A stretch of 64,000 nucleotides of DNA from the IMG/VR virus record IMGVR_UViG_3300049597_000059. The stretch is one strand, 5' to 3'. The notes under the pieces are model-generated. The model searched no databases, was not told the origin of the DNA, and was given only the letters and a program-made list of their open reading frames with translations. Shown one piece after another: positions 1,683 to 60,353 of this stretch. Position numbers and translations under genes: made by a program. How positions within the stretch are numbered: position 1 is the stretch's first letter; each line of letters opens with the position of its first letter. Source of the stretch: a virus (taxonomy: Duplodnaviria; Heunggongvirae; Uroviricota; Caudoviricetes).

Positions 1683-2001
1683 AAAAACTACATTTATAAA
1701 TACAGAGCTTGAATGGGCTGAGTCACAACTTACGTCTTGGAAAGCTTATGTGGATGCAAACCCACTACACGAACTAAAAGACAGGATTGAGTGGAAACCT
1801 ACAGCTAAAGGAGGAATGTTACCAATGGTAATTGCAAGCATTGAGGCACAAGGTAAGTTTGTACAAGAAACAATGAAGAACTATCTAGCCCTTATTGAGG
1901 TGGTAGACAAGCTAAGAAGTGTTGAAGAGGCTAAGGTGGAAGTGAGAGGTAAAGGGGAATTATCTGGTGCTGCAGAAGAGTTTCTTAAGAACAGAAGATA
2001 A
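1666..2001 (+). CDS. hypothetical protein immediately upstream of TerL (candidate small terminase subunit)
   Basis: Position only; 111 aa; stop overlaps TerL start (TAATGA). Confidence 0.3.
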   Translation: MATTIKKTTFINTELEWAESQLTSWKAYVDANPLHELKDRIEWKPTAKGGMLPMVIASIEAQGKFVQETMKNYLALIEVVDKLRSVEEAKVEVRGKGELSGAAEEFLKNRR

Positions 2002-8566: not shown

Positions 8567-10120
8567 ATGGCAATTCAAACAATTCCAGGTTTAACTGGCT
8601 TTACGTATGCTCGCGTTGCGTCTATGGACAAGCGTGCAGTAGGTAAGTTGACAGATGCAAACCACTTGGAGAGTTTTCACTCAACTGAGCCAGCAGATTA
8701 TGATAAGAAAATTATCAGTTTGTACACTCAGAGTTCTCTTTACAGTAACGATTTCTTGGATATGATTAACAAGAGCACTCCTTACTATATCGATAACAAC
8801 AGTGATGCTTGGAAGTGGCAAGTACAAGTTCCTTACAAATTCCCTAAAATCATTGATATTCCTGATAGCACTCTAGCTCTAGATAAGCCAGGTATCGATG
8901 GTCAAGAGTTTTCTCTTGTAATTGACACTAATGAGTTCTCTAAGAATGCAATTGTTTCTGTAGGTACTCGTCAGTATGGTCCTCGTTTCTACGTGATTAA
9001 AGATCCTATTCCTTGGAATATGGGCTTTTTGTACACCTTCACTCTTGTGACTGACAACCCTCAAGTAGATTACGTAAGTGCTACTTTCTTACAGACTGGT
9101 ATTGAACTTGAATTAGTTGATGCTGCTATCGGTGAATTCGATCAAGACTTATTAGGTCTTCCTCGTTTAGGTGAGCAAATCACTATGTTTGAATCTTTAG
9201 GTTCTGCATATGGTTATGAGCACAAAATCACTGAGTGGGCTGATGACAAAATGATGCGTGATGCTTCTGGTAAGCCTCTTGATATCTTAGTATATGCTCC
9301 ACAAAGACGTAACCAATTACCTTTAACTCGTAACGATGTTAAATGGGAACCATTTATTGAGTTCTGGATGCGTAAGTCTATGTTAGAATTAAAAGTTAAG
9401 CGTATGATCTGGGCTAAGCCTGGTACCGTGAAGACTAATGGTTCTAAGCAAGAATTAAAGCGTACATCTGCTGGTGTATACCACAGAATGCGTAATAACG
9501 GTAACTTAGTACAATACAACCGTGGTGAGTTCACTGCAAACTTGATTCGTTCAGTGTTTGGTGACTTATTCTATCGTCGTGTTGATGTTAAGGATCGTAG
9601 AGTTAAAATGTACACTAACGAAGCTGGTTTCGATGTGTTCCAACAAGCTCTTAAAAATGATGCACTTAATTCTGGTTTAACTTTCATGGCTGATTCTGGT
9701 AATCGCTACATGCAAGGAGAAGGTCAACACATCACTTACAACTTTGCATTCGATGCAATGGTTACACGTGAAACAGGTCGTGTTGAACTAATTCACTTAA
9801 AAGAATTAGACCTTCCTCAAACTAACTTAGAATTCGGTCAGAACAAAAAATCTACTCCTGTATTCATGGTGTTTGATGTATCTCCAATGAGCGATGGTTC
9901 AATGGTAAACAACATTCGTGAAGTACGTATGAAGGGTGCTCCTTCAATGACTTGGGGTTATATCGATGGAACTCGTCACCACTTAGGTTTTGCTAAGTCT
10001 CAAGGTATGAGTTCTGCGAACAAATTCCCTGGTTATGAGATTTGGATGAAAGACCGTTGTGATGTATTCATTGAAGATTTATCACGTACAGTATTAATCG
10101 AAGAAATACCACAATTCTAA
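8567..10120 (+). CDS. major capsid protein (candidate)
   Basis: 517 aa; position after scaffold-like gene; followed by strong hairpin; codon usage distinct (CGT/GGT-rich), suggesting high expression. Confidence 0.55.
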   Translation: MAIQTIPGLTGFTYARVASMDKRAVGKLTDANHLESFHSTEPADYDKKIISLYTQSSLYSNDFLDMINKSTPYYIDNNSDAWKWQVQVPYKFPKIIDIPDSTLALDKPGIDGQEFSLVIDTNEFSKNAIVSVGTRQYGPRFYVIKDPIPWNMGFLYTFTLVTDNPQVDYVSATFLQTGIELELVDAAIGEFDQDLLGLPRLGEQITMFESLGSAYGYEHKITEWADDKMMRDASGKPLDILVYAPQRRNQLPLTRNDVKWEPFIEFWMRKSMLELKVKRMIWAKPGTVKTNGSKQELKRTSAGVYHRMRNNGNLVQYNRGEFTANLIRSVFGDLFYRRVDVKDRRVKMYTNEAGFDVFQQALKNDALNSGLTFMADSGNRYMQGEGQHITYNFAFDAMVTRETGRVELIHLKELDLPQTNLEFGQNKKSTPVFMVFDVSPMSDGSMVNNIREVRMKGAPSMTWGYIDGTRHHLGFAKSQGMSSANKFPGYEIWMKDRCDVFIEDLSRTVLIEEIPQF

Positions 10121-12006: not shown

Positions 12007-13146
12007 ATGGCTGATTTTTCATTAACTACGCTCTTCGTAGTTCCAGTAGGAAACACTCTACCTAGCTCTGGTTCTACGCAAAACTTGACCGCAGGTCAGT
12101 TTGGTATTTTTAGAAGCGATTACACTGTAGCTAATGCAGGTAACATTGCTGCTAAACCGTATTTCTATTTAGCTCAAGGTAGAACAAACACTTATTTACA
12201 AGGTTCTAAGCGTTCTGACAAGATTGCTTCTAGCCAAGTTAGTGAGTGGTATAAAGTGGTTGGTAACCCAGTGGCTGCTAATCAAGTAACTGAAATTGGT
12301 AACTTCAATGTTAAAGCTGGTGATGTTGTAACATTCACATTACGTGCTCATTCTTCTTACATTGACACATTGTATTTCAACGGTTTTACCCGTTCTATTA
12401 CAGTTGTTGCTCCTTGTTTAGAGTGTGGTGGCGATCCATGTGCAGATGTTGATGTTCCTGCTTTCATCGATCAAGCTATCTTAAAGTTCAGACAAGAGGC
12501 TCCAGGTAACAACCCTGACAACATTAGCTTTGACACTTTCTATCAATTCCAAAGAGTTGGTAACAATCAGAACGCTAAGTTAGTTATCTCTGGTAAACCA
12601 TTAACTAAGTATGGTCAACCATGTGATGTTGCTGCATTCCCTTGGGAATACGATCGTATGTACTTCCGTACTTTCGTATACAGTGGACCAGCTACAACTG
12701 CTGACTTCATCGTTGCTGACAATTGTAACATTGTTGCTGAGGCTGTAGTTACTCAACGTGCTTCTTATGTATCTGGTACTTCAGATGAGATCAAGCAATT
12801 AGAGAAAAACTTCTATAGCTACCAAGCTGGTTACCTTAAGCATTTGTACAGAATGGTTGGTTACAACGAGAACTTTGAGTCTTGGGTATCTGACGGTACT
12901 ACTTATGATACTTATTACATTAAGTTCAATGAGTATGACAAATCTGCTTACAAGTGGGGTGATTACATCATCGAAGATAGCACTGTTATCATTGCTATTC
13001 CTAGTGGTGCAAGTGCTACAATCGAGGCAATCTTAGTTGCTGCTTTAGGTGCTGTAACTGATGATAGTGGTCCTGTAACAAGTACAACTTCTACTACAAC
13101 TACTGTTTGGCCTAGTACTTCAACAACAACTACTTTGATTCCTTAA
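12007..13146 (+). CDS. structural protein with C-terminal poly-Thr tail (…TTSTTTTVWPSTSTTTTLIP)
   Basis: 379 aa; C-terminal Thr-rich linker shared with several downstream tail proteins. Confidence 0.45.
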   Translation: MADFSLTTLFVVPVGNTLPSSGSTQNLTAGQFGIFRSDYTVANAGNIAAKPYFYLAQGRTNTYLQGSKRSDKIASSQVSEWYKVVGNPVAANQVTEIGNFNVKAGDVVTFTLRAHSSYIDTLYFNGFTRSITVVAPCLECGGDPCADVDVPAFIDQAILKFRQEAPGNNPDNISFDTFYQFQRVGNNQNAKLVISGKPLTKYGQPCDVAAFPWEYDRMYFRTFVYSGPATTADFIVADNCNIVAEAVVTQRASYVSGTSDEIKQLEKNFYSYQAGYLKHLYRMVGYNENFESWVSDGTTYDTYYIKFNEYDKSAYKWGDYIIEDSTVIIAIPSGASATIEAILVAALGAVTDDSGPVTSTTSTTTTVWPSTSTTTTLIP

Positions 13147-13229: not shown

Positions 13230-13787
13230 ATGACCTTAGATATACTGGTAGTACCAACTTATAATACATTAACATTAGGTGTAGCTGATGCATCAACTTA
13301 CAATACAAATCCTCCTGTTGTTACTTCTCCAACTCTTGAAGTAACAATGCCTGGATTTGCACCTGTATTTTTACCATTTAATGTTAATGACTTTAATATA
13401 CTTAATTCAGCATCATTAGGACTTAGTGTTGTAGGAGCTCCATTGATTCCTCTACCTGATGGAATCTATACATTAACATATTCTGTTGCTCCTGCATTTC
13501 AGAACTTTGTTACTAAAACCATCATTCGTGTTGAACAATTACAAGAGAAGTTTGATAATGCTTTTATGAAGCTTGATATGATGGAATGTGATCTTGCTAT
13601 CAAGACACAAGCTAAGGTTGACTTAAATAGTATATACTACATGATTCAGGGTTCTATTGCTGCAGCTAATAACTGTGCTGTAGATACTTCTAATAAACTG
13701 TATGTACAAGCAGATAAAATGCTTAATAACTTTATTAAAACCAATTGTGGTTGTTCAGGAAATAACTACATAATTAATTTCCAATAA
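13230..13787 (+). CDS. hypothetical tail-associated protein
   Basis: 185-aa ORF. Confidence 0.4.
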   Translation: MTLDILVVPTYNTLTLGVADASTYNTNPPVVTSPTLEVTMPGFAPVFLPFNVNDFNILNSASLGLSVVGAPLIPLPDGIYTLTYSVAPAFQNFVTKTIIRVEQLQEKFDNAFMKLDMMECDLAIKTQAKVDLNSIYYMIQGSIAAANNCAVDTSNKLYVQADKMLNNFIKTNCGCSGNNYIINFQ

Positions 13788-13788
13788 A

Positions 13789-13932
13789 ATGGCAAACTGT
13801 AGAGATTGTGGCATCAAAGTAGGATGTGGATGTCAATTAATTAACGGCTTATGTTCAGCATGTAATAATAAACTGAAGCAAGCAACTCAAAGAATAAAAA
13901 ATGTTATCACCAAGGCTTACAAACTGTATTGA
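13789..13932 (+). CDS. small Cys-rich ORF (47 aa, MANCRDCGIKVGCGCQLINGLCSACNNKLKQ...), not in the supplied ORF track
   Basis: ATG 1 nt after preceding stop; NCxDC motif as in the N-termini of the neighbouring fibre genes; overlaps 13901 ORF out of frame. Confidence 0.3.
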   Translation: MANCRDCGIKVGCGCQLINGLCSACNNKLKQATQRIKNVITKAYKLY

Positions 13933-14167
13933 TTGTGCAACTATTCCTGCACTCTTAACTGATATTGATTGCAAGTTAACAAGCTTGGCAAATAATCAAT
14001 ATAATAATATCGTATTCTCTTTAAACTATCCTGTACCAGGAGTTGTAATTGGTGACTTACTTAATTATAAAAGGATCTTGACTTACAAGTTTTGTAACCC
14101 TGATTACTGTAGTCAATTTACTGTAAAGATGATAGCGAGTAAAGTAAAACTTTTAATTCATAAATAA
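13901..14167 (+). CDS. small protein with fibre N-terminal anchor-like motif (NCIDC...IPALLTDIDCKL)
   Basis: 88 aa; shares an IPAL..TxD..KL segment with the 14176 protein. Confidence 0.4.
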   Translation: MLSPRLTNCIDCATIPALLTDIDCKLTSLANNQYNNIVFSLNYPVPGVVIGDLLNYKRILTYKFCNPDYCSQFTVKMIASKVKLLIHK

Positions 14168-14175
14168 TTTATAAA

Positions 14176-15273
14176 ATGTCTTGTACAAACTGCTTTAATG
14201 GATGTGTTGAGATTGTATCTGATCAATGTGTTAGATATACAGGTCCAAACATTCCTGCTCTAAATATTACTACAGGAGATACATTAACTCATGTAGAAGA
14301 AATGATTACAGATAAACTTGTTCCACTATTAGTTGGTACAGGTGATGTTATAACCATTGCTTCTGGTGATAAATGTGCTCTTATCAATGGATTCCTAACA
14401 GGAATCACTTCTCCTAATTCTACTCAATTATTTACAGCACTAGTTAAATCTGTTTGTAGTTTACAAACTCAAGTGACTGCAGTTGCTGCTGATATCACTG
14501 TATTAAATGCAGATTATTCAATAGGTTGTCTTACAGGTGTAACAGCCTCTTCTGACACACATGCTATTTTACAAGCTGTTATTACAAGACTTTGTACAGT
14601 AGTAACAGACTTAGCAGCATTAAGTTTAAATGTAAGTACAAACTACGTAAAGCTTGCTGATCTAAATGGTTTAATCCAAGCTTATTTAAATAGTCTTGCT
14701 CCTACACAGAACTATACAAAGATGGTTCCTTATACAGCTGTAGAATACTATGGTTCATTGACCTACTTTGATATCACTGGAGCAGGTATTGCTGCTGATG
14801 GGTTTGATAAAATCTATCTATGTAATGGCTTAAATGGAACTCCTGATAAAAGAGGACGTGTTCCTGTAGGTGCTATTGTTGGTATGGGTGGTGGAGCTCT
14901 AGATGCTGCTGTTAATCCTATTAACGTTGGTAATCCTAACTATGCTCTTGGAGATGGTGGTGGTGCTAACACTGTAATATTAAACAGCACACAAATCCCT
15001 GCACACTCACATCCTGTTACAGTTACTGATCCTGGTCACGTGCATGCTCCTGGTAGTTCTATCTTTAGAGGTAACAGAACTACAGATGATTCTGGTGGAA
15101 CACAATGTGTGGCTACACAATTATCAAATAGTGATCCAGCACTAACAGCACCTCAATACACAGCAAGTGCTACTACAGGTATAAATGTAACCGTTGGTAA
15201 TACAGGTGGTGGATTAGGTCATGCTAATATTCAGCCTGTGCGTGCTTGCTACTACATCATGTACATTCCTTAA
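14176..15273 (+). CDS. tail fibre / receptor-binding protein with T4 gp12-type tail-collar C-terminal domain
   Basis: C-terminus NTVILNSTQIPAHSHPV ... GGGLGHANIQPVRACYYIMYIP matches the phage tail collar pattern (LP.H.H...G...H.N.QP); N-terminus shares a Cys-rich anchor motif with the 53688 fibre. Confidence 0.6.
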   Translation: MSCTNCFNGCVEIVSDQCVRYTGPNIPALNITTGDTLTHVEEMITDKLVPLLVGTGDVITIASGDKCALINGFLTGITSPNSTQLFTALVKSVCSLQTQVTAVAADITVLNADYSIGCLTGVTASSDTHAILQAVITRLCTVVTDLAALSLNVSTNYVKLADLNGLIQAYLNSLAPTQNYTKMVPYTAVEYYGSLTYFDITGAGIAADGFDKIYLCNGLNGTPDKRGRVPVGAIVGMGGGALDAAVNPINVGNPNYALGDGGGANTVILNSTQIPAHSHPVTVTDPGHVHAPGSSIFRGNRTTDDSGGTQCVATQLSNSDPALTAPQYTASATTGINVTVGNTGGGLGHANIQPVRACYYIMYIP

Positions 15274-15292
15274 TCGATTAAACTAAATTATA

Positions 15293-15688
15293 ATGGCTTG
15301 CGTACCTGGTACCCCTTGCTTTGAGAATACAGTGAATGCTTATTATCCACAGAATTGTAATAATGGAGCATTCGCTGGTTATCCTGTTCCTACATCAGCC
15401 GTTCAATATAATGGCCCAGGTCTTCCTAATTCAGGAATTGATACAGGGGATATATTGACATTAGCTTTACAGAAACTAGATAACGCAATTGATCCTGTAG
15501 AATTAGTACAAACCCTTATCACTGTAATCAATCAGAACCCATCTTTAAAGGTGATGTTCTGTACATTGGTAAACTCTTGTCCAATTACAACAACCACTAC
15601 ATCTACAACGATTCCTCCTACAACAACTACTACAACATCTAGTTCTACATCAACATCAACTACTACAACAACAACTACAATTCCTTAA
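15293..15688 (+). CDS. small fibre-anchor-domain protein with C-terminal poly-Thr
   Basis: 131 aa; YNGPGLPNSGIDTGDILTLALQKLD parallels YTGPNIPALNITTGDTLTHVEEMITDKL (14176) and YTGINTNDNLQTALQKID (53688). Confidence 0.45.
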   Translation: MACVPGTPCFENTVNAYYPQNCNNGAFAGYPVPTSAVQYNGPGLPNSGIDTGDILTLALQKLDNAIDPVELVQTLITVINQNPSLKVMFCTLVNSCPITTTTTSTTIPPTTTTTTSSSTSTSTTTTTTTIP

Positions 15689-15700
15689 TAAACCTATAAT

Positions 15701-16237
15701 ATGACAGTATTAATTACATTAACGACAGCTGGTTCTTCAACAGGACCATTTAGTCTATATTCAAATGTAGATTCTTATTCTACACCATTTGAGACAGGTG
15801 TATCAAGATCTAGCCTACTGGCTGGATATACATCTACGGTAGTTCCAAATGGCACAACAATCGTTCGTGTTATGTCTACAGGAACATGTACAAACTATAC
15901 AGATATATCTGTAGTGCCATGTACTACAACCACAACTACCACAGTTCCTCCAACAACTACAACCACCACAACCCTACCTTATCAAATATATGTAATTGAT
16001 AATGGGGCTTCTGGTAGTTCAAGTGCTGCTTGTAGTTCAAGTACAACAACTAGCACTGTTTACACTCAATCAGTAAATAATGTTCCTATTGTTGGAATGT
16101 TTTTATACACTGATACAGGGTTAACTACTCCTTTTGTTGGTGGCACAGGATGGAGAAAATTAGTTAAAGGTGCTATAACTTATGCAGCTGAGGTTGATGT
16201 TAACGGAGAACTTACGAACTATATCACTTGTCCATAA
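15701..16237 (+). CDS. two-domain small tail protein joined by poly-Thr linker
   Basis: N-domain (…TAGSSTGPFSLYS…) paralogous to the N-terminus of the 24561 protein; C-domain (…LYTDTGLTTPFVGGTGW…VDVNGELTNYITCP) paralogous to the C-domain of the 60350 protein. Confidence 0.45.
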   Translation: MTVLITLTTAGSSTGPFSLYSNVDSYSTPFETGVSRSSLLAGYTSTVVPNGTTIVRVMSTGTCTNYTDISVVPCTTTTTTTVPPTTTTTTTLPYQIYVIDNGASGSSSAACSSSTTTSTVYTQSVNNVPIVGMFLYTDTGLTTPFVGGTGWRKLVKGAITYAAEVDVNGELTNYITCP

Positions 16238-16418: not shown

Positions 16419-17669
16419 ATGTCTGAAAACCAATCATTGCTACAACAGCTAGAAGAGATTCTACATTGGAAAAAGAGTAAACAATTCTATGCTGATAAGC
16501 TTGGAATTACAGAGTTTGAGGTTGACGAGTTATTAAAAGAATTAAGAAATCAAGAGAAGAGTGAGGAAGATGCTGAGGTTGGAAATTACATCTCTGAACT
16601 AGAGAATGTAATAGTTAAGTTTACAGAGGACATTAGTAAAGGTGTTGGTGAGGTGGTAGCTAATTTTAGCGAAGAGGTTAAGAGCTTAGATGAACTAATT
16701 GAGAAGTGTCATATAGACACAGAGAAATGGGAAATAACTAAATATGTACAGAACTTCTGGGGGAATGGAAACAATCCTCATTGGCAAGTCAAAGCATGGT
16801 TAGGTAAGAAGTCTACAGAACAAGTTTTTCAAGATAGTTTTGTAGACTTTTTAGCATCATACCAACCTGTTAGTCAGGAAGTTATGAGTCCTAAGTTTGA
16901 CCCAGAGAGACCAAATGGTATGTTGGTTATCAACAAACAAGACTCTCATTTAAACAAATGGGATGTAGATGGTAATAACAATGTACTAGATAGATTGGCT
17001 AAGATTATGTATAAGGTGGAAGTGATAGCTGCACAAGCTCAACTTTCAAACAACCTAGAAGAAATCACATACATTATTGGCTCAGATGAGTTTAATAGTG
17101 AATACACCAATGCAACTACAAAAGGAACTCCTCAACAGAATACACATACATATCACACTTCATTTGAGTATATATGTGACCATGAGGTGTTAATGATTAC
17201 AATGTTATTACAATACGCTAAACATGTTAATGTAGTGTATGTAGCAGGTAATCATGATGAGTTTGTAGGATGGCATATGGTTAACTGGTTACAAACGTAT
17301 TTTAGAAATACAAACAGACTTACAATTGATAGCTCTCCTAAATACAGAAAGTATGTAAGTTATGGCAATTCAGCATTGATGTTCAATCATGGGGATGCGA
17401 TTAAGCCAGCTAAACTTGCAGGACTGTTCCCAATAGAATATAGAGACCAATGGTCATTCCACCATAACTTCTATATATTCACAGGAGATAAGCACCATGA
17501 AGTGAGTCATGACTTTAACGGTATTAAATTTTACCAAATTCCAGCTTTCTCAAATGCTAAAAGCCTTTGGGATGATAAGAATGGTCACACAATGTCTAAA
17601 GCTGAAGTGACAGCATTCTTAATTGATCAAGCTGAGGGAATGACAAATATATTCAAACAGTATTTATAA
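16419..17669 (+). CDS. calcineurin-like metallophosphoesterase (C-terminal domain) with N-terminal extension
   Basis: Motifs DSH (DxH), GSDEF, VYVAGNHDEF (GNHD/E), NHGD, GDKHHE in the canonical order of the metallophosphatase fold. Confidence 0.5.
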   Translation: MSENQSLLQQLEEILHWKKSKQFYADKLGITEFEVDELLKELRNQEKSEEDAEVGNYISELENVIVKFTEDISKGVGEVVANFSEEVKSLDELIEKCHIDTEKWEITKYVQNFWGNGNNPHWQVKAWLGKKSTEQVFQDSFVDFLASYQPVSQEVMSPKFDPERPNGMLVINKQDSHLNKWDVDGNNNVLDRLAKIMYKVEVIAAQAQLSNNLEEITYIIGSDEFNSEYTNATTKGTPQQNTHTYHTSFEYICDHEVLMITMLLQYAKHVNVVYVAGNHDEFVGWHMVNWLQTYFRNTNRLTIDSSPKYRKYVSYGNSALMFNHGDAIKPAKLAGLFPIEYRDQWSFHHNFYIFTGDKHHEVSHDFNGIKFYQIPAFSNAKSLWDDKNGHTMSKAEVTAFLIDQAEGMTNIFKQYL

Positions 17670-18394
17670 TGGCAACTTTAAGGAAATTAGTTTCAGATGT
17701 GCGTGCAATGCACAAATTGTTATCAACAGATAACTTAATCACTGATAGAGTGGTTGCATCTGAGATTAAGAACAACACACTTTTATTAGTAAAACGTGAG
17801 ACAAATCTCAGAAAGCTTTGGGCTACTGATACTTTGTTTACTACCATTCCTTGTTTGGAATTGGTAGAAGTTCCTATTTCTGAATGTTGTGATTTTGTGG
17901 ATCCTTGTACTGTAGCTAGAACAAAAGTTAAACTTCCTCGTATCTGCGAGGGTAATTATCAATACCTCATTCAAGGTGTTTATTCAATAAACGCTATGAG
18001 TGGGCAAGGCAAAAAGTTGAAAGAGATTACTATCAATAGATATTTAAATCTCTTAAAACTTCCAATCATCAAGAATGAACAATACTATTGGATTTCAAAT
18101 GGTTATTTATATGTAAATAATCCTTTGTTACAAGCCATTAGAATTGCTGCTTTCTTTGAAGAAGATGTTCCTAATGAGATCATGTTTGCTGAGTGTCACT
18201 GCGGTGATAATGTTAATCTAGAAGACTATTGTATGAATCCTCTAGATAAAGAATATGGCTGCCCTGGTTATCTAGAAAAGCAAGTGCTAGAACTGACATC
18301 TCAAAAGCTGTTATCAACCTACTTTAGATTGAAAACAGATCAAACATCAGATGGGGTGGATGGTCAAGCACCAAACACAACCAACAATAACTAA
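17669..18394 (+). CDS. hypothetical Cys-rich protein
   Basis: 241-aa ORF; start overlaps upstream stop. Confidence 0.4.
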   Translation: MATLRKLVSDVRAMHKLLSTDNLITDRVVASEIKNNTLLLVKRETNLRKLWATDTLFTTIPCLELVEVPISECCDFVDPCTVARTKVKLPRICEGNYQYLIQGVYSINAMSGQGKKLKEITINRYLNLLKLPIIKNEQYYWISNGYLYVNNPLLQAIRIAAFFEEDVPNEIMFAECHCGDNVNLEDYCMNPLDKEYGCPGYLEKQVLELTSQKLLSTYFRLKTDQTSDGVDGQAPNTTNNN

Positions 18395-18875: not shown

Positions 18876-19799
18876 ATGTCATATTACTACAAGTATAACT
18901 TCATCTCCCCTGAGCCTGTCTATGCGACTGTGAAAGAAGAGTTTAAAAGCTACTTCGATACAGGTGCTGTAGATGATTTGTTATTTCCTACATACCTGGA
19001 TAAATGTCTTAGGAAACTAGGAAGGTCTTCTTATGTTATTAGCGAACAGCTTCTATATATTGAGGACTTTGAAGCTAGGCTTCCTGATAACTTCTTTGCT
19101 GTAAGAGAAGCTTGGTTATGTACATCAATCCCTGGCTATCCTTATCAAACAGCTAATTCATTCTATTCTCAAGCTGCTTCCCAAACAACAATACAGGTGA
19201 GTCCTGTTATTTCTGGAGGAGCTCCTTGTACCAATCTAGAATGTACAACAGGTTGTCCTACGTGCATGCCTGAGCTTATTCAAGCTGTATACAAGACTAA
19301 TCAACAAGTGGCTGTAGAATATCATAGACAATACTTATTAAAACCAGGTAACATCTCTGTTAAAGCACATTGTGATCTACAGTGTGCAAACTTTGGTAGC
19401 TCTTCTGCTGATTCATTTGACATTAGAGATAACAAGTTTGTTACCAATTTTAGAAATGGTGTAGTTCACTTAGTGTTCTATTCTACAGCATATGATGGAG
19501 TGGGTAATGAATTGATTCCAGATAACTATCGTATCAGAGAGTTTGTAGAAGCTTTCATCAAATACAAAATGATAGAAACGCTGACCAATCAAACTAATGA
19601 TGAAACGTTTAACCAACTTCAAACAAAGCTTGCATACTATAAACAACAAGCTGATGAAGCATTCATCATGGCTGATATTGAGGTGAAGAAGCAAGATTCT
19701 TGGGCTAAGCAAAGAAGAATCATACAAGACTTAAATAGATTTAATAGATACGAACTACCAAATAGAAGTTACAGATATGGCTGGAGAAGAAACAACTAA
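18876..19799 (+). CDS. hypothetical Cys-rich structural protein
   Basis: 307 aa; CTNLECTTGCPTCMP cluster. Confidence 0.4.
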   Translation: MSYYYKYNFISPEPVYATVKEEFKSYFDTGAVDDLLFPTYLDKCLRKLGRSSYVISEQLLYIEDFEARLPDNFFAVREAWLCTSIPGYPYQTANSFYSQAASQTTIQVSPVISGGAPCTNLECTTGCPTCMPELIQAVYKTNQQVAVEYHRQYLLKPGNISVKAHCDLQCANFGSSSADSFDIRDNKFVTNFRNGVVHLVFYSTAYDGVGNELIPDNYRIREFVEAFIKYKMIETLTNQTNDETFNQLQTKLAYYKQQADEAFIMADIEVKKQDSWAKQRRIIQDLNRFNRYELPNRSYRYGWRRNN

Positions 19800-53687: not shown

Positions 53688-56600
53688 ATGGACATTACTT
53701 GTTCAGCTGAACCGTGCCCGATTATACTAAATTCTACCTGCGTATTCTACGAGGGTAACACTTTGGTGTATACAGGTATTAATACTAACGACAATCTTCA
53801 GACTGCTTTACAGAAAATAGATCAAAAGTTTCAAGACGCTGGTTTAGGTTATATATTTACGAATGGTATTGAACAACTAACTCCTGGTGGTGCAGTTATG
53901 TTGGGTGGAGCATTGATTCAAAACACTACAATTGGTGGGTTATACAATCTTGCATTTGCTGGTACATTGGAAGCATCTGCTCTCATCACTACAGGCGGTA
54001 CATCTTCAGATTTTGTAAAGGGTGATGGTAGCTTAGATCCAACTAGCTATCAGCCAGCAGGCAATTATATTTCAAATTTAACAGGTGATGTAACAGCTAA
54101 CGGACCAGGTTCTGTAACTGCTACACTAGCAACAGTATTTGGTGCACCTGGAACATATGGTAATTCAGGAAGCGTTCCTCGTATTACAGTGGATGGTAAG
54201 GGTAGGATTACAAATGTTACCCCTGTAGCAATCAACTATCCAGCTCAATCATTAAGTTTTACAGGCGATGTAAGTGGATCTGGTTTCACTGGATCTCCAG
54301 TTACACTAACATTAGATACAGTTAATTCTAATGTATACGGAAGTAACACATTCCTTAAGTTTGCTGTAAATGGTAAAGGTCTTGTGACCTCTGCTGCTCC
54401 TGTTACACAAGGAGATATTGTATCTGCATTAGGGTATGTACCAGTTCCTACAAGCAGAACGTTAAGTATTAATGGTGTAACCTATGACTTATCTGCAAAT
54501 AGAAACTGGTCTGTAGGTACTGTGACAAGTGTGCAACTTGCTATGCCTCAAGCATTTCAAATCACAACACCTCCTGTAACTTCTTCAGGAACTATAAATG
54601 TTATAGCAACAGGATCGATAGCTCAATATATAAGAGGTGATGGTACCTTAGGTAACTTCACAGCTACAGCAGGTACCTCTGGTACTGCAGGTACAAGCGG
54701 AACATCTGGCACTAGCGGTACAACAGGTACTTCTGGAAGTTCAGGTACAAGTGCTACATCAGGGTCATCAGGGTCATCAGGTATAGATGGCACATCTGGT
54801 ACAAGTGGAACCACAGGAACTTCAGGTAGCTCTGGTACATCTGGCAGTTCAGGAACTGCTGGTACAACAGGTACATCAGGTACAGCAGGTACCAGTGGAA
54901 GCTCAGGTACTACAGGTACTAGTGGCAGTTCTGGAACCTCAGGATCAAGTGGTACAGCAGGTACAACAGGTACGTCTGGAACCAGTGGTACAGATGGAAC
55001 AGGGGGAACTTCTGGGACAAGTGGTACTAGTGGATCCTCTGGAACCACAGGTACGTCAGGTACTACAGGAACAAGTGGATCTTCAGGTACTGATGGTTCT
55101 GGTGGAACATCTGGTACATCTGGTACTAGTGGCACCAGTGGAACAAGTGGGACTAGTGCAACTGATGGTACAGGAGGTACTTCTGGTACATCAGGAACAA
55201 CAGGTTCATCTGGCTCTTCAGGTACAACAGGAACTAGCGGATCAAGTGGAACTAGTGGTAGTGCTGGTACATCAGGCACCACAGGTACAAGTGGGACCTC
55301 TGGAACATCAGGAAGTTCAGGAACATCTGCAACAGATGGTACTGGAGGTACTAGTGGAACTAGTGGGACATCAGGTACTTCTGGAACCACAGGAACTAGT
55401 GGTACTACAGGTACGTCTGGCTCTTCAGGAAGTAGTGGAAGTTCAGGTTCTTCAGGTACCACTGGAACAAGTGGCACAAGTGGAACAGCAGGTACATCAG
55501 GTATAAATGGTGTATCTGGAGGACTTATATACTATCTAAATCAATCATTAAATACAAGTTCTGCTTTTGGCAGTCCTACATATAAGCAGTGGTCTCCAAT
55601 TGGAACAGGCACTGGGGAACAAACTATAACAACAAGTATTGCAGGTTCTACAAGAACTCTCTTTGCTACATATGCTACAGATTCAAATGTTCCAGGTATA
55701 ACAAGTATACCTTCAGGACTTTGGGCTTGGGTAACACACTTCTCTATCAACGCTAATGTTAGCGTTAAAGTGGATATAGAGCTTTACAAATGCAACTCTA
55801 CAGGTGGAAGTGTAGTGTTTCTTGGAACAACCAACCTTGACACTGAATCAATGTCAAGTGGTGTTATCAAAGAATTTTTCACAGACTTATTCCTTCCTCA
55901 AACTGCAATGTTATCTACAGATAGACTTTACTGTCAAATCTATGTAGAGCATACAGGTGCAGGAAGTCAAAGCATTACATTCTATACAGAAGGAACAAGT
56001 AATTATTCATACGCACAAACCACATTCACTCCTCCTAGTGGTACTTCTGGATCTTCAGGTACATCAGGTGTTGGAGGAACTAGTGGCACATCTGGCACTA
56101 GTGGAACTGATGGTACGAGTGGAACTAGTGGTGTAAGTGGATCTAGTGGTACAACTGGTACCTCTGGAACTACTGGAACCAGTGGGTCTTCAGGAACTGC
56201 AGGCACAAGTGGAACTGATGGAACAGGAGGAACAAGCGGTACTAGTGGTACGACAGGCTCTTCAGGTTCTAGTGGAACAACAGGTACAAGTGGGACAAGT
56301 GGTACGTCTGCAACAAGTGGAACAAGTGGCACAACAGGAACTTCTGGCTCTAGTGGCTCAGCAGGTTCTAGTGGTACGTCTGGTACTAATGGAACAGGTG
56401 GTACAAGTGGTACTTCAGGAACCACTGGAACATCAGGTTCTTCTGGCAGTAGTGGCATCAATGGCACATCAGGATCCTCAGGTACTACAGGATCCTCAGG
56501 AACATCTGGTATTAATGGATCTAATGGCACCTCAGGTACAGCTGGTTCTTCAGGAACAAGTGGTACAAGTGGAACCAATGGTACAGGTGGTACGTCAGGT

Positions 56601-59600
56601 ACCACAGGTACATCAGGCTCTAGTGGTACATCAGCCACAAGTGGTACGTCTGGTACAACAGGAACCTCTGGTACAACAGGCTCTAGTGGGTCTAGTGGTA
56701 CAACAGGAACCAGCGGTAGCTCAGGAACAAGTGGAACTTCTGGCACCAGTGGTACGTCAGGTACAAGTGGTAGCTCAGGTAGCTCTGGTAGAGATATTGG
56801 TTCTAGTGCTGTTATTATATTAGGTGCTGGGACATGTTCATCAGTTAGGTGTGGTGTTTTAAATGCTGCATCAGGGAGCTGTAGCTCTGTCGTAGGTGGT
56901 AAGAACAATGCAGGATTAGGTGTATCTTCTTTTATTGGGGCAGGTATTTTTAACACTGCTTGTGACTACTCATTAGTAGGGGCAGGTAGTTCAAATACTG
57001 CTTCAGGATATATATCAACAATTGGAGGAGGTTTTAGTAACACTGCATCAGGTAGTATATCTTTTATTGGAGCAGGAAATGTTAATACAGCTTCAGGATG
57101 TACTTCTGCTGTTGTAGGAGGTCAAAGCAATATTTCATCAGGTGCTTTTAGTTTTGTAGGAGGAGGATGTGGAAACTGTGGAAATAATTCATATTCTACA
57201 AGTATTGGAGGTCAAGCAAATGTGGCTGTTGCAAATTTTGCTACAACGTTAGGAGGATATAATAACTCAGCAAGTGGATATAATTCAATTGTTGGAGGTA
57301 GAAGTAACACATCAAGTGGAAACTATTCAGGAATATTTTCAGGTAAACAAAATAGTTCTTCAGGTATTTATTCAGCAGTATTAGGTGGACGTCTAAATAC
57401 AGCATCAGCCAATTGTTCAACAATAGGTGGCGGTCAACAAAACGTAGCTTCAGGAGCTTGGTCATTTATTGGAGGTGGTAATTGTAATACTGCTAATAAT
57501 AATAGGTCAATTGTAGTAGGAGGGCTTCTGAATACATCTTCAGGACTATATTCAACAGTTGGTGGTGGTAGTTATAATACTGCATCAGGAAGATATGCTT
57601 TAGTAGGTGGAGGTTCATCAAACACTTCTTCAGCTTATGGTTCAACAGTATCAGGAGGATATAAAAACTGTGTAATAAATACTAACGCTACTATTGGTGG
57701 TGGTCTTTGCAATTTTATATGTAATGCAACAACAGTTATTTCTTCAGCAGGTGCGACTATAGCAGGTGGGGTTGGTAATAACACAAGTGGTGGTACTTGG
57801 AATGGTTGTAGATTTAACAATCCTCCTACAGCATTTTATGCAGCAGGATGTTTATCTTTTATTGGTGGGGGTTATCAAAACAGAGCCACTGCAACTTACT
57901 CTACAGTTGTAGGAGGTTATTTAGGAATATCTACAGGATGTTTTTCTTTTATTGGTAGTGGATATAATAATACTGCTTCAGGTAATTACTCAGCAGTAGT
58001 TGGTGGTGATTCAAATACAGCCAATGGAGGTAATGCATTTGTTGGTAGTGGTTTAGGTAACGTAGCAAGTGGAAGCAGGTCAGTTGTTTCAGGTGGTCAG
58101 TCCAATACTGCATCAGGAGGATTTTCATTAATAGCAGGAGGTAGGCAAAACACTTCTTCAGGTACTTATTCTCTTGTTACAGGAGGTTATTTAAATTGTT
58201 CTTCATCAACTTGGTCTACAGCAGGTGGTGGTAAGCAAAATACAGCATCAGGTTATATATCAACGGTTGCAGGAGGATGGCAAAACACAGCTAACGCAGA
58301 TAGTTCTTCTGTATTAGGTGGTGGTAAAAATGGTGCTACAGGTGCTTATTCAACTATTTCAGGAGGATATTTAAATAGTTCAGGTGGAGCTTTCTCAGCT
58401 GCTTTAGGAGGACTTCAAAATTCTGCATCAGGAGTTAGGTCTTTTGTAGGTGGAGGACAGGCTAATACTGCTTCAGGATGTTTTGCAACTGTTGCAGGAG
58501 GTTGTGGTTCAGTGGCAAGTGGTTATTCCTCTGTATCAGCAGGTTTTGGAAGTAATGCGTCAGGGGGGTATTCAGGTGCTTTGAGTGGTAGTTTTAATAC
58601 AGCATCAGGAAGTGAATCAGTAGTTTCAGGAGGTGCATCAAATACAGCATCTGCTTATACATCATTTGTAGGTGGTGGTGGTAGTAATATATCTTGTGGT
58701 ATAGCTTCAGTAATAGCAGGTGGTAAATCTAATACAGCTTCAGGTGGTTGTTCTACAGTAGCAGGAGGTTGTGGTAACACTGCAACTTGTCGCTTTGCGT
58801 TTGTAGGTGGAGGTAGATTAAACTCAGCAAGTGGTGCTTATGATGCAACTATAGGTGGTGGTTATTTTAATATAGCTTCAGGAACATACGCTTCTACTGT
58901 AAGTGGTGGGTACAATAACTGTTCTACAAGCCACATGAGTACAGTTGGTGGTGGTAGATTCAATACTGCCTCAGGATATTGCTCTACAGTTAGTGGTGGT
59001 CATAGTAACTGTGCAACTGTTGAGGGAGCTGCTGTAGCAGGTGGTTCTACCAACTCTGCAACTTCTAATCATTCTTTTGTAGGAGGTGGTCTTCAAAACA
59101 CAGCTAATGCTATTAGAGCTACAGTAGCAGGTGGAAGATGTAATACTGCTTCAGGTAATTGTTCATTTATTGGAGGAGGAGATATAAATACAGCTTCAGG
59201 AGCACATTCAACTATTAGTGGGGGTTTAACTAACACAGCAAGTGGTTATCGTTCTTTCTTAGGGGGTGGTCAAAGCAATACAGCTAATAACGATTGGGCT
59301 GCTTTAGGAGGCGGTAGAGCAAACTGTGCCAATGGTGCATATTCAGGAACTTTTAGTGGTAGATACAACACTTCTCCAGGTGCTTATGCTTTTACAGGAG
59401 GTGGATATAATAGTACGTCTAGTGGTAATTTTTCAACTGTTGCAGGTGGTCGTGACCATACAGCATCAGGATATAGAAGTTTTATTGGTAGTGGTAATTC
59501 AAACACTTCTTCAGGAGATTCATCTGCTATTGTAGGTGGTCAGCTAAATACTTCTTCAGGAAGGTGTTCTTTTATAGGAGGCGGTAATTCAAATACAGCA

Positions 59601-60353
59601 TCGGGTGCATATTCAGTTGTAGTTGGTGGTAATTCTAACACTGCATCAAGCTATCGTTCTTTTGTTGGAAATGGTGATAATAACGTAGTGAGTTCTAATA
59701 GAGGTTTTATAGGTGCAGGGTATACTAATTCAGTATCAGGTAACTATTCAGCCGTTGTGGCAGGATACAATAACTGTGTTACAGTGTGTCACATGGGATT
59801 CATTGGTGCAGGAAGATTGAATACAGTTTCTTCTTCTTATAGAGGAGGTATTGTTAGTGGTGGTTGTAATACTGTTAGTGGTTCTCATGCATTTGTTGGT
59901 GCAGGTCAAGGCAATACTGCTTCAGGAAGTCACTCTGCAGTATTAAGTGGAATATCTAATACTATTTCAGGAAATTATTCAGGTGGTGGTGGATGTGGAA
60001 TATCAGGAACTTGTATAAATACATTCTATTGGAATAACTTCTGTGCAACGTCTTGTATGTGGGCTACAGCTTACTTTGAATCTTCTGATGAAAGATTGAA
60101 GGACATTCATTGTAGAGTGGGTTCTTTTGATAACATCAACCCTATCTATTTCAATTGGAAAGAAGGAGATGCAAGTGTTATTAACATAGGATATTCTGCT
60201 CAGAATGTTAAAGAAATTCTTCCAGATACAATCAGAACAGATGAGAAGGGTTATTACAACGTAGACTATCATCAAGTTCACATATACAAAATGATGAAGA
60301 TGGAAGAAAGACTTGCCAAATTAGAGGAAAGACTTAAAAAATATGAATCATGA
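53688..60353 (+). CDS. tail fibre (2221 aa) with collagen-like regions, YadA-like beta-roll repeats and C-terminal S74 intramolecular chaperone domain
   Basis: N-terminal Cys anchor motif; phage tail-fibre repeats (ITVDGKGRITNV / AVNGKGLVTSA); two Gly-X-Y blocks; many NTASGxxSxVxGG repeats; C-terminal SSDERLKDIH… (Ser-Lys autoproteolytic chaperone signature). Confidence 0.65.
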   Translation: MDITCSAEPCPIILNSTCVFYEGNTLVYTGINTNDNLQTALQKIDQKFQDAGLGYIFTNGIEQLTPGGAVMLGGALIQNTTIGGLYNLAFAGTLEASALITTGGTSSDFVKGDGSLDPTSYQPAGNYISNLTGDVTANGPGSVTATLATVFGAPGTYGNSGSVPRITVDGKGRITNVTPVAINYPAQSLSFTGDVSGSGFTGSPVTLTLDTVNSNVYGSNTFLKFAVNGKGLVTSAAPVTQGDIVSALGYVPVPTSRTLSINGVTYDLSANRNWSVGTVTSVQLAMPQAFQITTPPVTSSGTINVIATGSIAQYIRGDGTLGNFTATAGTSGTAGTSGTSGTSGTTGTSGSSGTSATSGSSGSSGIDGTSGTSGTTGTSGSSGTSGSSGTAGTTGTSGTAGTSGSSGTTGTSGSSGTSGSSGTAGTTGTSGTSGTDGTGGTSGTSGTSGSSGTTGTSGTTGTSGSSGTDGSGGTSGTSGTSGTSGTSGTSATDGTGGTSGTSGTTGSSGSSGTTGTSGSSGTSGSAGTSGTTGTSGTSGTSGSSGTSATDGTGGTSGTSGTSGTSGTTGTSGTTGTSGSSGSSGSSGSSGTTGTSGTSGTAGTSGINGVSGGLIYYLNQSLNTSSAFGSPTYKQWSPIGTGTGEQTITTSIAGSTRTLFATYATDSNVPGITSIPSGLWAWVTHFSINANVSVKVDIELYKCNSTGGSVVFLGTTNLDTESMSSGVIKEFFTDLFLPQTAMLSTDRLYCQIYVEHTGAGSQSITFYTEGTSNYSYAQTTFTPPSGTSGSSGTSGVGGTSGTSGTSGTDGTSGTSGVSGSSGTTGTSGTTGTSGSSGTAGTSGTDGTGGTSGTSGTTGSSGSSGTTGTSGTSGTSATSGTSGTTGTSGSSGSAGSSGTSGTNGTGGTSGTSGTTGTSGSSGSSGINGTSGSSGTTGSSGTSGINGSNGTSGTAGSSGTSGTSGTNGTGGTSGTTGTSGSSGTSATSGTSGTTGTSGTTGSSGSSGTTGTSGSSGTSGTSGTSGTSGTSGSSGSSGRDIGSSAVIILGAGTCSSVRCGVLNAASGSCSSVVGGKNNAGLGVSSFIGAGIFNTACDYSLVGAGSSNTASGYISTIGGGFSNTASGSISFIGAGNVNTASGCTSAVVGGQSNISSGAFSFVGGGCGNCGNNSYSTSIGGQANVAVANFATTLGGYNNSASGYNSIVGGRSNTSSGNYSGIFSGKQNSSSGIYSAVLGGRLNTASANCSTIGGGQQNVASGAWSFIGGGNCNTANNNRSIVVGGLLNTSSGLYSTVGGGSYNTASGRYALVGGGSSNTSSAYGSTVSGGYKNCVINTNATIGGGLCNFICNATTVISSAGATIAGGVGNNTSGGTWNGCRFNNPPTAFYAAGCLSFIGGGYQNRATATYSTVVGGYLGISTGCFSFIGSGYNNTASGNYSAVVGGDSNTANGGNAFVGSGLGNVASGSRSVVSGGQSNTASGGFSLIAGGRQNTSSGTYSLVTGGYLNCSSSTWSTAGGGKQNTASGYISTVAGGWQNTANADSSSVLGGGKNGATGAYSTISGGYLNSSGGAFSAALGGLQNSASGVRSFVGGGQANTASGCFATVAGGCGSVASGYSSVSAGFGSNASGGYSGALSGSFNTASGSESVVSGGASNTASAYTSFVGGGGSNISCGIASVIAGGKSNTASGGCSTVAGGCGNTATCRFAFVGGGRLNSASGAYDATIGGGYFNIASGTYASTVSGGYNNCSTSHMSTVGGGRFNTASGYCSTVSGGHSNCATVEGAAVAGGSTNSATSNHSFVGGGLQNTANAIRATVAGGRCNTASGNCSFIGGGDINTASGAHSTISGGLTNTASGYRSFLGGGQSNTANNDWAALGGGRANCANGAYSGTFSGRYNTSPGAYAFTGGGYNSTSSGNFSTVAGGRDHTASGYRSFIGSGNSNTSSGDSSAIVGGQLNTSSGRCSFIGGGNSNTASGAYSVVVGGNSNTASSYRSFVGNGDNNVVSSNRGFIGAGYTNSVSGNYSAVVAGYNNCVTVCHMGFIGAGRLNTVSSSYRGGIVSGGCNTVSGSHAFVGAGQGNTASGSHSAVLSGISNTISGNYSGGGGCGISGTCINTFYWNNFCATSCMWATAYFESSDERLKDIHCRVGSFDNINPIYFNWKEGDASVINIGYSAQNVKEILPDTIRTDEKGYYNVDYHQVHIYKMMKMEERLAKLEERLKKYES
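54664..55524 (+). repeat. Collagen-like (G-T/S-S/T)n coding repeat block 1 (about 287 aa)
   Basis: Strict Gly every third codon (GGN-ACN-AGY); generates spurious long antisense ORFs. Confidence 0.8.
56043..56795 (+). repeat. Collagen-like Gly-X-Y coding repeat block 2 (about 250 aa)
   Basis: Same triplet periodicity as block 1. Confidence 0.8.
56830..59990 (+). repeat. About 13-14-aa degenerate coding repeats (NTASGxxSxVxGGxx), YadA-head-like
   Basis: Dozens of tandem copies visible in the translation; typical of left-handed parallel beta-roll fibres. Confidence 0.6.

What the first reader, a model, noticed from the sequence alone, without database searches (positions are those of the whole stretch)
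13789..15460. Family of paralogous Cys-rich N-terminal anchor modules heading at least four fibre/RBP genes
The N-termini MSCTNCFNGCVEIVSDQCVRYTGPNIPALNITTGDTLTHVEEMITDKL (14176), MACVPGTPCFENTVNAYYPQNC…YNGPGLPNSGIDTGDILTLALQKLD (15293), MDITCSAEPCPIILNSTCVFYEGNT…YTGINTNDNLQTALQKID (53688), …NCIDCATIPALLTDIDCKL (13901) and the unlisted 47-aa ORF MANCRDCGIKVGCGC (13789) share a C-x2-4-C…C…Y-x-G-(P)…TGD-x-LT…QK-h-D pattern. This suggests several receptor-binding proteins dock to one adaptor site through a common N-terminal module, or that a cassette system swaps distal specificity domains. The C-terminal domains differ: tail collar, poly-Thr, and collagen/beta-roll.
Basis: seen in the sequence. 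Interest (0 to 1): 0.6.

Follow-up and report, generated by a model that had tools for sequence, protein, structure and literature searches.

The report
Shared N-terminal anchor on phage fibres
Three fibre genes of an uncultured crAss-like phage begin with the same ~50-residue cysteine-rich module, an unannotated but widespread domain. It most likely plugs interchangeable fibres into the tail collar, which is a familiar phage design built from a new domain family.

Summary
The window is the structural block of an uncultured crAss-like phage (Crassvirales capsid, ring and muzzle proteins). The shared N-terminal motif is real for three genes only: A (14176), B (15293) and C (53688). A profile built without A and B scores them at 24.7 and 28.6 bits, and 0 of 2000 shuffles reach that.

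The 88-aa ORF (13901) and the 47-aa ORF (13789) do not share the motif. The 88-aa ORF sits where crAss001 encodes tail hub protein B. The 47-aa ORF is a conserved six-cysteine mini-gene.

The module family is large: 1215 clusters at 50% identity. It sits almost always at residues 1-55 and has no Pfam, NCBIfam, PHROG or PDB match.

In 66 of 66 related loci, the hub gene is followed by exactly two module genes. Sequence downstream of the module is replaced wholesale between genomes.

Best reading: a hub-docking anchor carrying swappable distal domains. Homology and swapping are shown; docking is inferred. This is a known principle with a new domain family, of moderate interest.

The parts
14176..14325 (+). 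A-type N-terminal module (residues 1-50 of gene A; MSCTNCFNGCVEIVSDQCVRYTGPNIPALNITTGDTLTHVEE...)
   Evidence: 24.7 bits against a C-type-only HMM, 0/2000 shuffles as good. 76% identical to the L069 orthologue over the first 25 residues.
14176..15273 (+). Gene A, 365-aa short fibre: module, then a conserved helical/coiled stalk (to about residue 175), then a tail-fibre C-terminal domain
   Evidence: PHROG tail protein/tail fibre families over residues 181-364. The C-terminal domain is replaced in L069, where identity is 52-76% for residues 1-175 and 0-16% after that.
15293..15508 (+). B-type N-terminal module (residues 1-72 of gene B, with a longer Cys-rich lead-in; core SAVQYNGPGLPNSGIDTGDILTLALQKLD)
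   Evidence: 28.6 bits against a C-type-only HMM, 0/2000 shuffles as good.
15293..15688 (+). Gene B, 131 aa: module, a small helical domain ending in FCTLVNSC, then a poly-Thr tail with no distal domain
   Evidence: Orthologues at the same position are 81-1488 aa. They come as module plus helical domain only, with a poly-Thr tail, with a poly-Thr linker plus globular domains, or as the module fused to collagen.
53688..53852 (+). C-type N-terminal module (residues 1-55 of gene C; MDITCSAEPCPIILNSTCVFYEGNTLVYTGINTNDNLQTALQKID)
   Evidence: Commonest subtype in the exhaustive search. In the AF2 model of C residues 1-115 (overall mean pLDDT 77.8), the module has a core with pLDDT above 90 and a helix at residues 37-52.
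53688..60353 (+). Gene C, 2221-aa long fibre: module, shaft, collagen-like repeats, Gly/Ser-rich repeats, C-terminal endosialidase-type chaperone
   Evidence: Pfam Collagen 1.1e-58; Peptidase_S74 21.7 bits against a cut-off of 22. Many PHROG tail-fibre families. The syntenic gene in 56 IMG/VR loci is 174-3396 aa.
13230..13787 (+). Probable tail hub protein A (THA), the candidate docking partner
13789..13932 (+). ORF E, 47-aa Cys6 mini-protein (CxxC-x5-CxC-x6-CxxC); not a module paralogue
   Evidence: Conserved in L069 and L070/71 with all six Cys kept and 8 synonymous codon changes. Module HMM gives only 4.6 bits, over the helix segment.
13901..14167 (+). ORF D, 88-aa Cys-rich protein at the tail hub protein B (gp39) position; not a module paralogue
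   Evidence: Present in 66/66 THA loci; 88 aa in the relatives translated. Module HMM 0.2 bits. No detectable similarity to crAss001 gp39, so the assignment rests on position and size only.
15701..16237 (+). Neighbouring 178-aa gene: a different conserved N-terminal domain, a poly-Thr linker and a variable C-terminal domain (no module)
   Evidence: No module hit. The N-terminus is conserved and the C-terminus replaced in L069/L070.
17669..18394 (+). Ring protein R2, which in crAss001 forms part of the surface that holds the hubs
   Evidence: Precomputed Pfam PF25702 CrAss_Ring_2 on the identical gene in L001-L006. phmmer to gp40, E 1.4e-5.
18876..19799 (+). Ring protein R1
   Evidence: PF24228 CrAss_Ring_1. 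phmmer to gp43, E 1.5e-4.

Best explanation
The ~50-residue module has three parts: a Cys-rich loop, a beta-hairpin (C-V-x-Y-x-G) and an alpha-helix (N-D-x-L-x-x-A-L-x-K-I-D). It is the virion-attachment domain of the tail fibres in one lineage of crAss-like phages.

Proposed mechanism:
- Each fibre trimerises. The helix continues into a coiled coil or collagen stalk.
- The three N-terminal modules insert into one of the twelve docking hubs of the tail collar.
- The hub is built from the product of 13230-13787 (THA-like) and probably the 88-aa product of 13901-14167. The fit may be locked by disulfides or a metal.
- Everything distal to the module is exchangeable and sets what the fibre binds.

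The genome carries three anciently diverged, position-specific versions: A and B directly behind the hub genes, and C behind the cargo/RNA-polymerase genes.

Shown: homology of the three modules, strict N-terminal location, wholesale replacement of the downstream sequence, and invariant linkage to the THA-like gene.
Inferred: trimer state, docking to the hub, and the role of the cysteines.
For: Homology of the three modules:
- Pairwise z = 4.5-8.9.
- Leave-out HMM: 24.7 and 28.6 bits, 0/2000 shuffles as good.
- Exactly three copies in the window.

Family and placement:
- 1215 representative proteins at E <= 1e-3, and 316 at E <= 1e-10.
- The module lies within the first ~12 residues in 142 of the best 150, in proteins of 60-1983 aa.

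Modularity:
- Identity is 62-74% in the first 50 residues, then 6-26% after (C against L036, L042, L048, L060).
- A against L069-A: 52-76% to residue 175, then 0-16%.
- B-position products range from 81 to 1488 aa with different distal parts.

Link to the hub:
- 66/66 evaluable IMG/VR loci have THA, then D, then two module genes at +0.4 and +1.5 kb.
- The same order occurs in the cultured Leptolyngbya phage Lbo-JY46. Its MCP is only 26% identical. Its THA-like gene (E 5e-18) is followed by three genes with module-like N-termini, one of them annotated as tail fiber.

Precedent and fibre character:
- In crAss001, residues 1-26 of the trimeric fibre gp22 sit inside each THA2-THB hub, and the hub region is disulfide-stapled (PMC10172136).
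- Cys is enriched here: 2-13% in the hub, ring and fibre proteins against 0.84% over all listed ORFs.
- A and C have tail-fibre C-terminal regions.
Against: - No complex could be modelled, so docking is inferred from gene order, analogy and fold.
- The module has no sequence or fold similarity to the gp22 N-terminus or to any solved structure.
- D shows no similarity to THB.
- Three conserved, mutually divergent subtypes are not what a single shared site predicts.
- Most B-position products are short and headless (81-136 aa), which is odd for a receptor-binding fibre.
- The linkage survey covers one lineage (THA 72-96% identical), so the 66 loci are not independent.
Confidence: 0.6

Rival explanations
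1. The module is a capsid-docking peptide of head fibres. It would bind hexon pockets as the N-termini of crAss001 gp21 (residues 1-38) and gp29 (residues 1-58) do, so some or all module proteins would decorate the head rather than the tail.
For: - Many module proteins are as small as head fibres: B is 131 aa, and there are 59-61-aa proteins in L008 and 81-110-aa B-position products. crAss001 gp21 and gp29 are 97 and 122 aa.
- The N-terminal docking length is similar (PMC10172136).
- Poly-Thr tails would suit surface decoration.
Against: - The genes are tightly linked to the hub gene, not to the capsid genes, in 66/66 loci and in Lbo-JY46.
- A and C carry tail-fibre type distal domains and an endosialidase-type chaperone.
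- There is no similarity to gp21 or gp29.
Confidence: 0.12
2. The module is only an N-terminal oligomerisation or folding cap: a disulfide- or metal-stabilised knot that nucleates trimer formation. It would have no docking specificity, and attachment would be made by other parts or other proteins.
For: - Three or four conserved Cys lie within 20 residues, followed by a helix. In the 60-61-aa proteins this helix runs straight into a short coiled coil.
- The AF2 monomer model is compact only for residues ~20-52.
Against: - Stand-alone module proteins with no fibre to nucleate are common.
- The module is far more conserved than the stalks it would nucleate.
- Known fibre folding nuclei are usually C-terminal, as the S74 chaperone is here (general knowledge).
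Confidence: 0.13
3. The three subtypes address three different sites or partners. Examples are inner and outer fibre positions, or non-equivalent THA1/THA2/THB faces. The short B product would be a connector or blank plug rather than a receptor-binding protein.
For: - The subtypes are position-specific and old: core identity is 0.63, 0.49 and 0.69 within types and 0.29-0.38 between types.
- The B-type keeps its own helical domain.
- crAss001 has inner and outer fibre assemblies attached through gp22 (PMC10172136).
Against: No data on stoichiometry or placement. The shared core motif suggests a common binding mode.
Confidence: 0.14
4. The resemblance is chance or a compositional effect of Cys-, Thr- and Asn-rich N-termini.
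For: This holds for D and E, which share only scattered Cys and a helix-like stretch.
Against: For A, B and C, 0/2000 shuffles reach the leave-out HMM scores, and hundreds of homologues exist.
Confidence: 0.01

Closest known systems
N-terminus (residues 1-26) of crAss001 tail fibre gp22, docked in the THA2-THB tail hub (PDB 7QOJ; PMC10172136)
   Same: - A crAss-like phage in which the extreme N-terminus of a trimeric fibre is the attachment element.
- The hub genes lie in the same block of gene order.
- The collar region is Cys-rich and disulfide-stabilised.
   Different: - No detectable sequence similarity (phmmer A against gp22, E 0.085).
- The module is about twice as long and Cys-rich.
- It is present on three to five genes per genome, including stand-alone mini-proteins.
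- The fibre genes follow the hub genes here, whereas in crAss001 they follow the portal gene.
crAss001 head fibres gp21 and gp29 (N-terminal 38-58 residues bind capsid hexon pockets)
   Same: Short N-terminal docking segment on small fibre proteins of a crassvirus; similar size to gene B.
   Different: No sequence similarity. Different gene neighbourhood. The module also heads fibres of 2000-3400 aa with tail-fibre features.
Conserved N-terminal anchor domains of podovirus fibres and tailspikes with exchangeable distal parts: T7 gp17 N-terminal domain, P22/Sf6 tailspike head-binding domain, and the multi-tailspike Klebsiella and CBA120/G7C systems (general knowledge, not tested here)
   Same: Same design logic: a conserved N-terminal attachment module, mosaic receptor-binding C-termini, and several receptor-binding proteins per virion.
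   Different: Unrelated sequence family with no Pfam, PHROG or PDB hit. Cys-rich. Three stable subtypes tied to genome position.
Adjacent fibre genes of Leptolyngbya phage Lbo-JY46 (XAI97407 'tail fiber protein' and XAI97406)
   Same: Closest cultured relative. Divergent copies of the same Cys-rich N-terminal module (HMM E 4.7e-9 and 8.7e-6). They lie directly downstream of a THA-like gene.
   Different: Only about 26% MCP identity, a cyanobacterial host, and a longer Cys-rich lead-in. No published analysis was found.

Membership tests
Crassvirales virion module (context of the finding) | Crass-type major capsid protein, muzzle protein, and ring proteins R1 and R2 | tested here: met
   PF23898 Crass_capsid 4.8e-28 and PF25731 crAss_MUZ 4.1e-30. 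PF24228 and PF25702 on the identical genes in L001-L006. Gene-order matches to gp31, 33, 34, 40, 42 and 43.
crAss tail hub protein A (Pfam PF25724 crAss_THA), for 13230-13787 | Sequence match to the family HMM | tested here: not met
   No Pfam hit at E <= 0.1. The family profile finds nothing in PDB sequences. hhalign gives only a short local match, P 7e-4, probability 26%.
crAss tail hub protein A, for 13230-13787 | Two-domain fold of gp38 (beta-sandwich plus helical domain) and position between the auxiliary-capsid gene slot and R2 | tested here: met
crAss tail hub protein B (Pfam PF25711 crAss_THB), for ORF D 13901-14167 | Sequence match to the family, or to gp39 | tested here: not met
   No Pfam hit, no PDB sequence hit, hhalign probability 0.1%. 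Only position and size (88 aa against 114 aa) agree.
Hub-docking fibre N-terminus (gp22-like) | Physical insertion of the trimeric N-terminus into the THA2-THB hub | not testable with these tools
   Only monomer prediction is offered. It needs multimer modelling or cryo-EM.
Any described domain family, for the module itself | Match in Pfam-A, NCBIfam, PHROGs, PDB sequences or PDB folds | tested here: not met
   Pfam and PHROGs give nothing over the N-termini. NCBIfam gives nothing. The PDB profile search returns only chance helical matches. Foldseek against PDB has no hit at E <= 0.001.
Collagen-like phage tail fibre with an endosialidase-type intramolecular chaperone, for gene C | Collagen triple-helix repeats and a C-terminal Peptidase_S74 domain | tested here: inconclusive
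   Collagen is met, at 1.1e-58. Peptidase_S74 scores 21.7 bits, just under the 22-bit cut-off.
   No Pfam family at E <= 0.1. PHROG tail-fibre families do match residues 181-364. The motif YLCNGLNGTPDKRGR resembles the family by eye only.

The most novel reading that the evidence does not exclude
The three conserved subtypes may form an addressing code. Each subtype would direct its fibre to a different, non-equivalent position on the A2B hub collar. The abundant headless or module-only mini-proteins (59-136 aa, including gene B) would act as blank plugs or connectors. They would set how many hubs carry a long fibre, giving a built-in way to tune fibre stoichiometry.
Probability: 0.15. Interest if true: 0.7.

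Novelty: new member of a known kind. Interest (0 to 1): 0.4.

Why it matters
crAss-like phages are abundant, yet their receptor-binding proteins are mostly unannotated. A ~50-residue profile that marks the N-terminus of fibres gives a simple handle for finding them: 1215 clusters, with no database family.

The handle would help to:
- find receptor-binding and decoration proteins in this aquatic/environmental lineage;
- map where distal domains are exchanged;
- pick the hub-fibre interface for structural work.

A cultured relative, Leptolyngbya phage Lbo-JY46, makes this testable.

Tried and rejected
- DNA search of the region against cultured phages: no match.
- tblastn of A found only a distant Burkholderia phage fibre, matching the middle of the protein (residues 87-290).
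- Treating D and E as family members: rejected on shuffle statistics.
- An apparent 266-aa variant of gene A in L006: a scaffold gap of Ns, not a variant.
- Sequence routes to THA and THB all failed or were marginal: Pfam, PDB phmmer/hmmsearch and hhalign. Only the fold comparison worked for THA.
- Foldseek of the module model against the PDB gave nothing.
- The PF26696 PTL_trimer label in a precomputed gene table was not reproduced by my own scan at E <= 0.01.
- Literature searches found nothing for Lbo-JY46 or the motif strings. A keyword search (Crassvirales, tail fiber, N-terminal, conserved, receptor-binding) returned only two unrelated papers.
- The context of P0057, a member with an N-terminal extension, lay on a contig too short to be informative.
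Full report
**What the window is**

All large ORFs lie on the + strand at about 36% GC. Their order is:
- large terminase (2001-4031);
- P22-like portal (4031-6616);
- Crass-type major capsid protein (8567-10120; PF23898, 4.8e-28);
- ring proteins R2 (17669-18394) and R1 (18876-19799);
- muzzle protein (19777-24549; PF25731, 4.1e-30);
- very large cargo-type ORFs, including one of 4562 aa;
- a 2221-aa collagen-like fibre.

phmmer against crAss001 proteins recovers gp31, gp33, gp34, gp40, gp42 and gp43 in the same order. The window is therefore the structural block of an uncultured crAss-like phage.

There is no nucleotide match among 50,697 cultured phage records. Near-identical metagenomic contigs do exist (L001-L006).

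**Check of the observation**

The five ORFs exist as described. Only three share the motif.

Local alignment of the first 90 residues against 1000 shuffles:

| Pair | z | Shuffles as good |
|---|---|---|
| A-B | 8.9 | 0/1000 |
| B-C | 6.9 | 0/1000 |
| A-C | 4.5 | 3/1000 |
| any pair with D (13901) or E (13789) | <= 1.6 | not significant |

A stricter test used an HMM built from 140 C-type homologues from other genomes, with neither A nor B in it:

| ORF | Score (bits) | Shuffles reaching it |
|---|---|---|
| A | 24.7 | 0/2000 (best shuffle 12.0) |
| B | 28.6 | 0/2000 (best shuffle 10.2) |
| D | 0.2 | 447/2000 |
| E | 4.6 | 14/2000 (19-residue helix stretch only) |

A six-frame scan of the whole window finds exactly three copies.

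**How big the family is**

A word-indexed search gave 33 proteins. The exhaustive HMMER search of 1.84 billion representatives gave 1215 proteins at E <= 1e-3 and 316 at E <= 1e-10.
- In 142 of the best 150, the module starts within the first ~12 residues.
- Protein length runs from 60 to 1983 aa.
- The domain boundary falls right after the conserved 'QKID'. Beyond it the sequences continue as a common shaft start, as collagen-like GTS repeats, as a short coiled coil followed by a stop, or as unrelated sequence.
- No Pfam, NCBIfam or PHROG family covers the module.
- A profile search of PDB sequences gives only chance helical matches.
- A Pfam scan of 63 full-length members finds few distal domains: Collagen 4, Peptidase_S74 2, BppL_N 2, Lcl_C 1.

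**Fold**

An AF2 model of C residues 1-115, made with a 56-sequence alignment, has mean pLDDT 77.8. The blocks covering residues 21-40 are at 90-94, and a helix spans residues 37-52. The Cys-rich first 20 residues are less confident. Foldseek against the PDB finds nothing. The model is a monomer, so this is weak evidence about the assembled state.

**Modular exchange**

With C's N-terminus as query, 56 IMG/VR loci were found.
- Nearly all lie in the same position: after homologues of the 4562-aa and 1647-aa ORFs wherever the locus reaches far enough upstream (53 show both, the rest are cut short).
- Fibre length ranges from 174 to 3396 aa.
- Many loci carry one or two extra small module ORFs (51-218 aa) just upstream. 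L008 has a 59-aa module plus poly-Thr, a 61-aa module plus coiled coil, and a 3135-aa fibre in tandem.

Identity profiles show sharp breakpoints:
- C against L036, L042, L048 and L060: 62-74% identical over residues 1-50, then 6-26%.
- A against its L069 counterpart: 52-76% to residue 175, then 0-16%, with a different C-terminal domain.

**Neighbourhood and the likely docking partner**

In crAss001 the order is AUX gp36, THA gp38, THB gp39, R2 gp40, gp42, R1 gp43, muzzle gp44. Each of the 12 collar hubs is a THA2-THB trimer. Each hub holds residues 1-26 of the trimeric fibre gp22, and disulfides stabilise the region (PMC10172136).

In the window, 13230-13787 occupies the gp38 slot and ORF D the gp39 slot.

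Evidence on the THA assignment for 13230-13787:
- Sequence tests fail. There is no crAss_THA or crAss_THB Pfam hit, although those models recognise gp38 and gp39. There are no PDB sequence hits.
- The AF2 model (pLDDT 81.5) is a beta-sandwich plus three helices.
- Foldseek gives a full-length hit to 7qoj_H, the second THA copy.
- hhalign adds a weak local match around a conserved 'ECD' (P 7e-4).

I take 13230-13787 as a probable THA.

D shows no similarity to gp39. Its assignment as a THB counterpart rests on position, size and strict conservation only.

**Linkage**

A scan for the THA-like protein returned 80 IMG/VR loci, of which 66 had enough downstream sequence to evaluate. All 66 contain D and exactly two module genes, starting about 0.4 and 1.5 kb after THA.
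- The first (A position) is usually 360-381 aa.
- The second (B position) is 81-1488 aa. Forms seen are module plus helical domain only (81-93 aa), the same with a poly-Thr tail (as in the window), with a poly-Thr linker and globular domains, or the module fused directly to collagen.

These loci belong to one lineage (THA 72-96% identical), so they are not independent.

Independent support comes from two cultured phages:
- Leptolyngbya phage Lbo-JY46. Its MCP is 26% identical (E 7e-33). It has a THA-like gene (E 5e-18), then 92-aa and 59-aa genes. Three genes with module-like Cys-rich N-termini follow, one annotated as tail fiber (HMM E 2.7e-3, 4.7e-9 and 8.7e-6).
- Cellulophaga phage phi17:2. 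It shows THA-like gp058, small structural proteins with only marginal module resemblance, then pectate-lyase tailspikes.

**Subtypes**

Core identity within the A, B and C positions is 0.63, 0.49 and 0.69. Between positions it is 0.29-0.38. The three copies are old paralogues tied to genome position, not recent duplicates.

**Interpretation**

The best-supported reading is a virion-attachment module that docks fibres to the collar hubs, with exchangeable distal parts (confidence about 0.6).

Rivals:
- capsid hexon docking like crAss001 head fibres (0.12);
- an oligomerisation cap without site specificity (0.13);
- subtype-specific sites, with B as a connector or plug (0.14);
- chance (0.01).

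The principle is well known from other podoviruses (general knowledge). What is new is the domain family, its size, its three stable subtypes and the common headless forms. I file it as a new member of a known kind, interest 0.4.

**ORF E**

ORF E is a real, conserved gene. The first 26 residues, with all six Cys (CxxC-x5-CxC-x6-CxxC), are kept in L069 and L070/71, with 8 synonymous changes. It is not a module paralogue. Its role is unknown; it may be part of the hub.

Noticed in passing
window 13789-13932 (+): A 47-aa ORF encodes a Cys6 mini-protein (CxxC-x5-CxC-x6-CxxC). It is wedged between the THA-like gene and ORF D and overlaps the start of D by 32 nt. It is conserved in diverged relatives with synonymous changes, so it is probably a real zinc-knuckle-like virion or assembly protein with no crAss001 counterpart.
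   Followed up: partly
window 12007-13146, 15293-15688, 15701-16237, 19777-24549, 60350-60829, 60876-61223: Poly-Thr/Ser tracts of 7-26 residues occur at the C-termini or as internal linkers of six virion-block proteins. These include the protein in the auxiliary-capsid slot and the muzzle protein. The muzzle protein's tail also carries Cys-rich repeats (IDCTLIGIACIDCTIVG). In relatives the same tracts link conserved N-terminal parts to variable distal domains.
   Followed up: partly
window 15701-16237 (+): A 178-aa gene after B has a different conserved N-terminal domain (MTVLITLTTAG...), a poly-Thr linker and a C-terminal domain that is replaced between relatives. This is a fourth modular surface protein with its own anchor.
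   Followed up: partly
window 16419-17669 (+): A 416-aa homologue of PHROG 'DNA repair exonuclease' (phrog_704, 3.2e-45) sits among the tail genes between the fibres and R2. It is conserved there in relatives (408-416 aa), which is an odd place for a nuclease or phosphoesterase.
   Followed up: no
window 6619-7149 (+): The 176-aa gene directly after the portal carries a Band_7 (PF01145) domain according to the precomputed table for the identical gene in L001.
   Followed up: no
window 54623-55477 (-), 54787-55506 (+), 56003-56956 (-), 56137-56823 (+): Long ORFs in other frames and on the opposite strand inside gene C (PVVPE- and QV-rich translations) are by-products of the collagen-like GTS repeat DNA. 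The same repeats raise GC to 0.41-0.43 over 54-60 kb. They are not genes.
   Followed up: partly
window 34903-48591 (+): A single 4562-aa ORF, followed by a 1647-aa ORF, lies upstream of fibre C. Both are conserved in nearly all of the 56 related loci, wherever the locus reaches far enough upstream. They are presumably the ejected cargo/virion RNA-polymerase block of crass-like phages, but domains were not examined.
   Followed up: no
L068 (Leptolyngbya phage Lbo-JY46, PP438436.1): This cultured cyanophage, listed only as unclassified Caudoviricetes, has a crass-type MCP relative (26% identity over 99% of the query) and a THA-like gene. It appears to be a crAss-like phage of a cyanobacterium.
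   Followed up: partly
P0057, P0069, P0120: A subset of family members carries a conserved 40-120-residue extension (MNVLPN-L-YG...) ahead of the module. The module is therefore not always at the very N-terminus.
   Followed up: no
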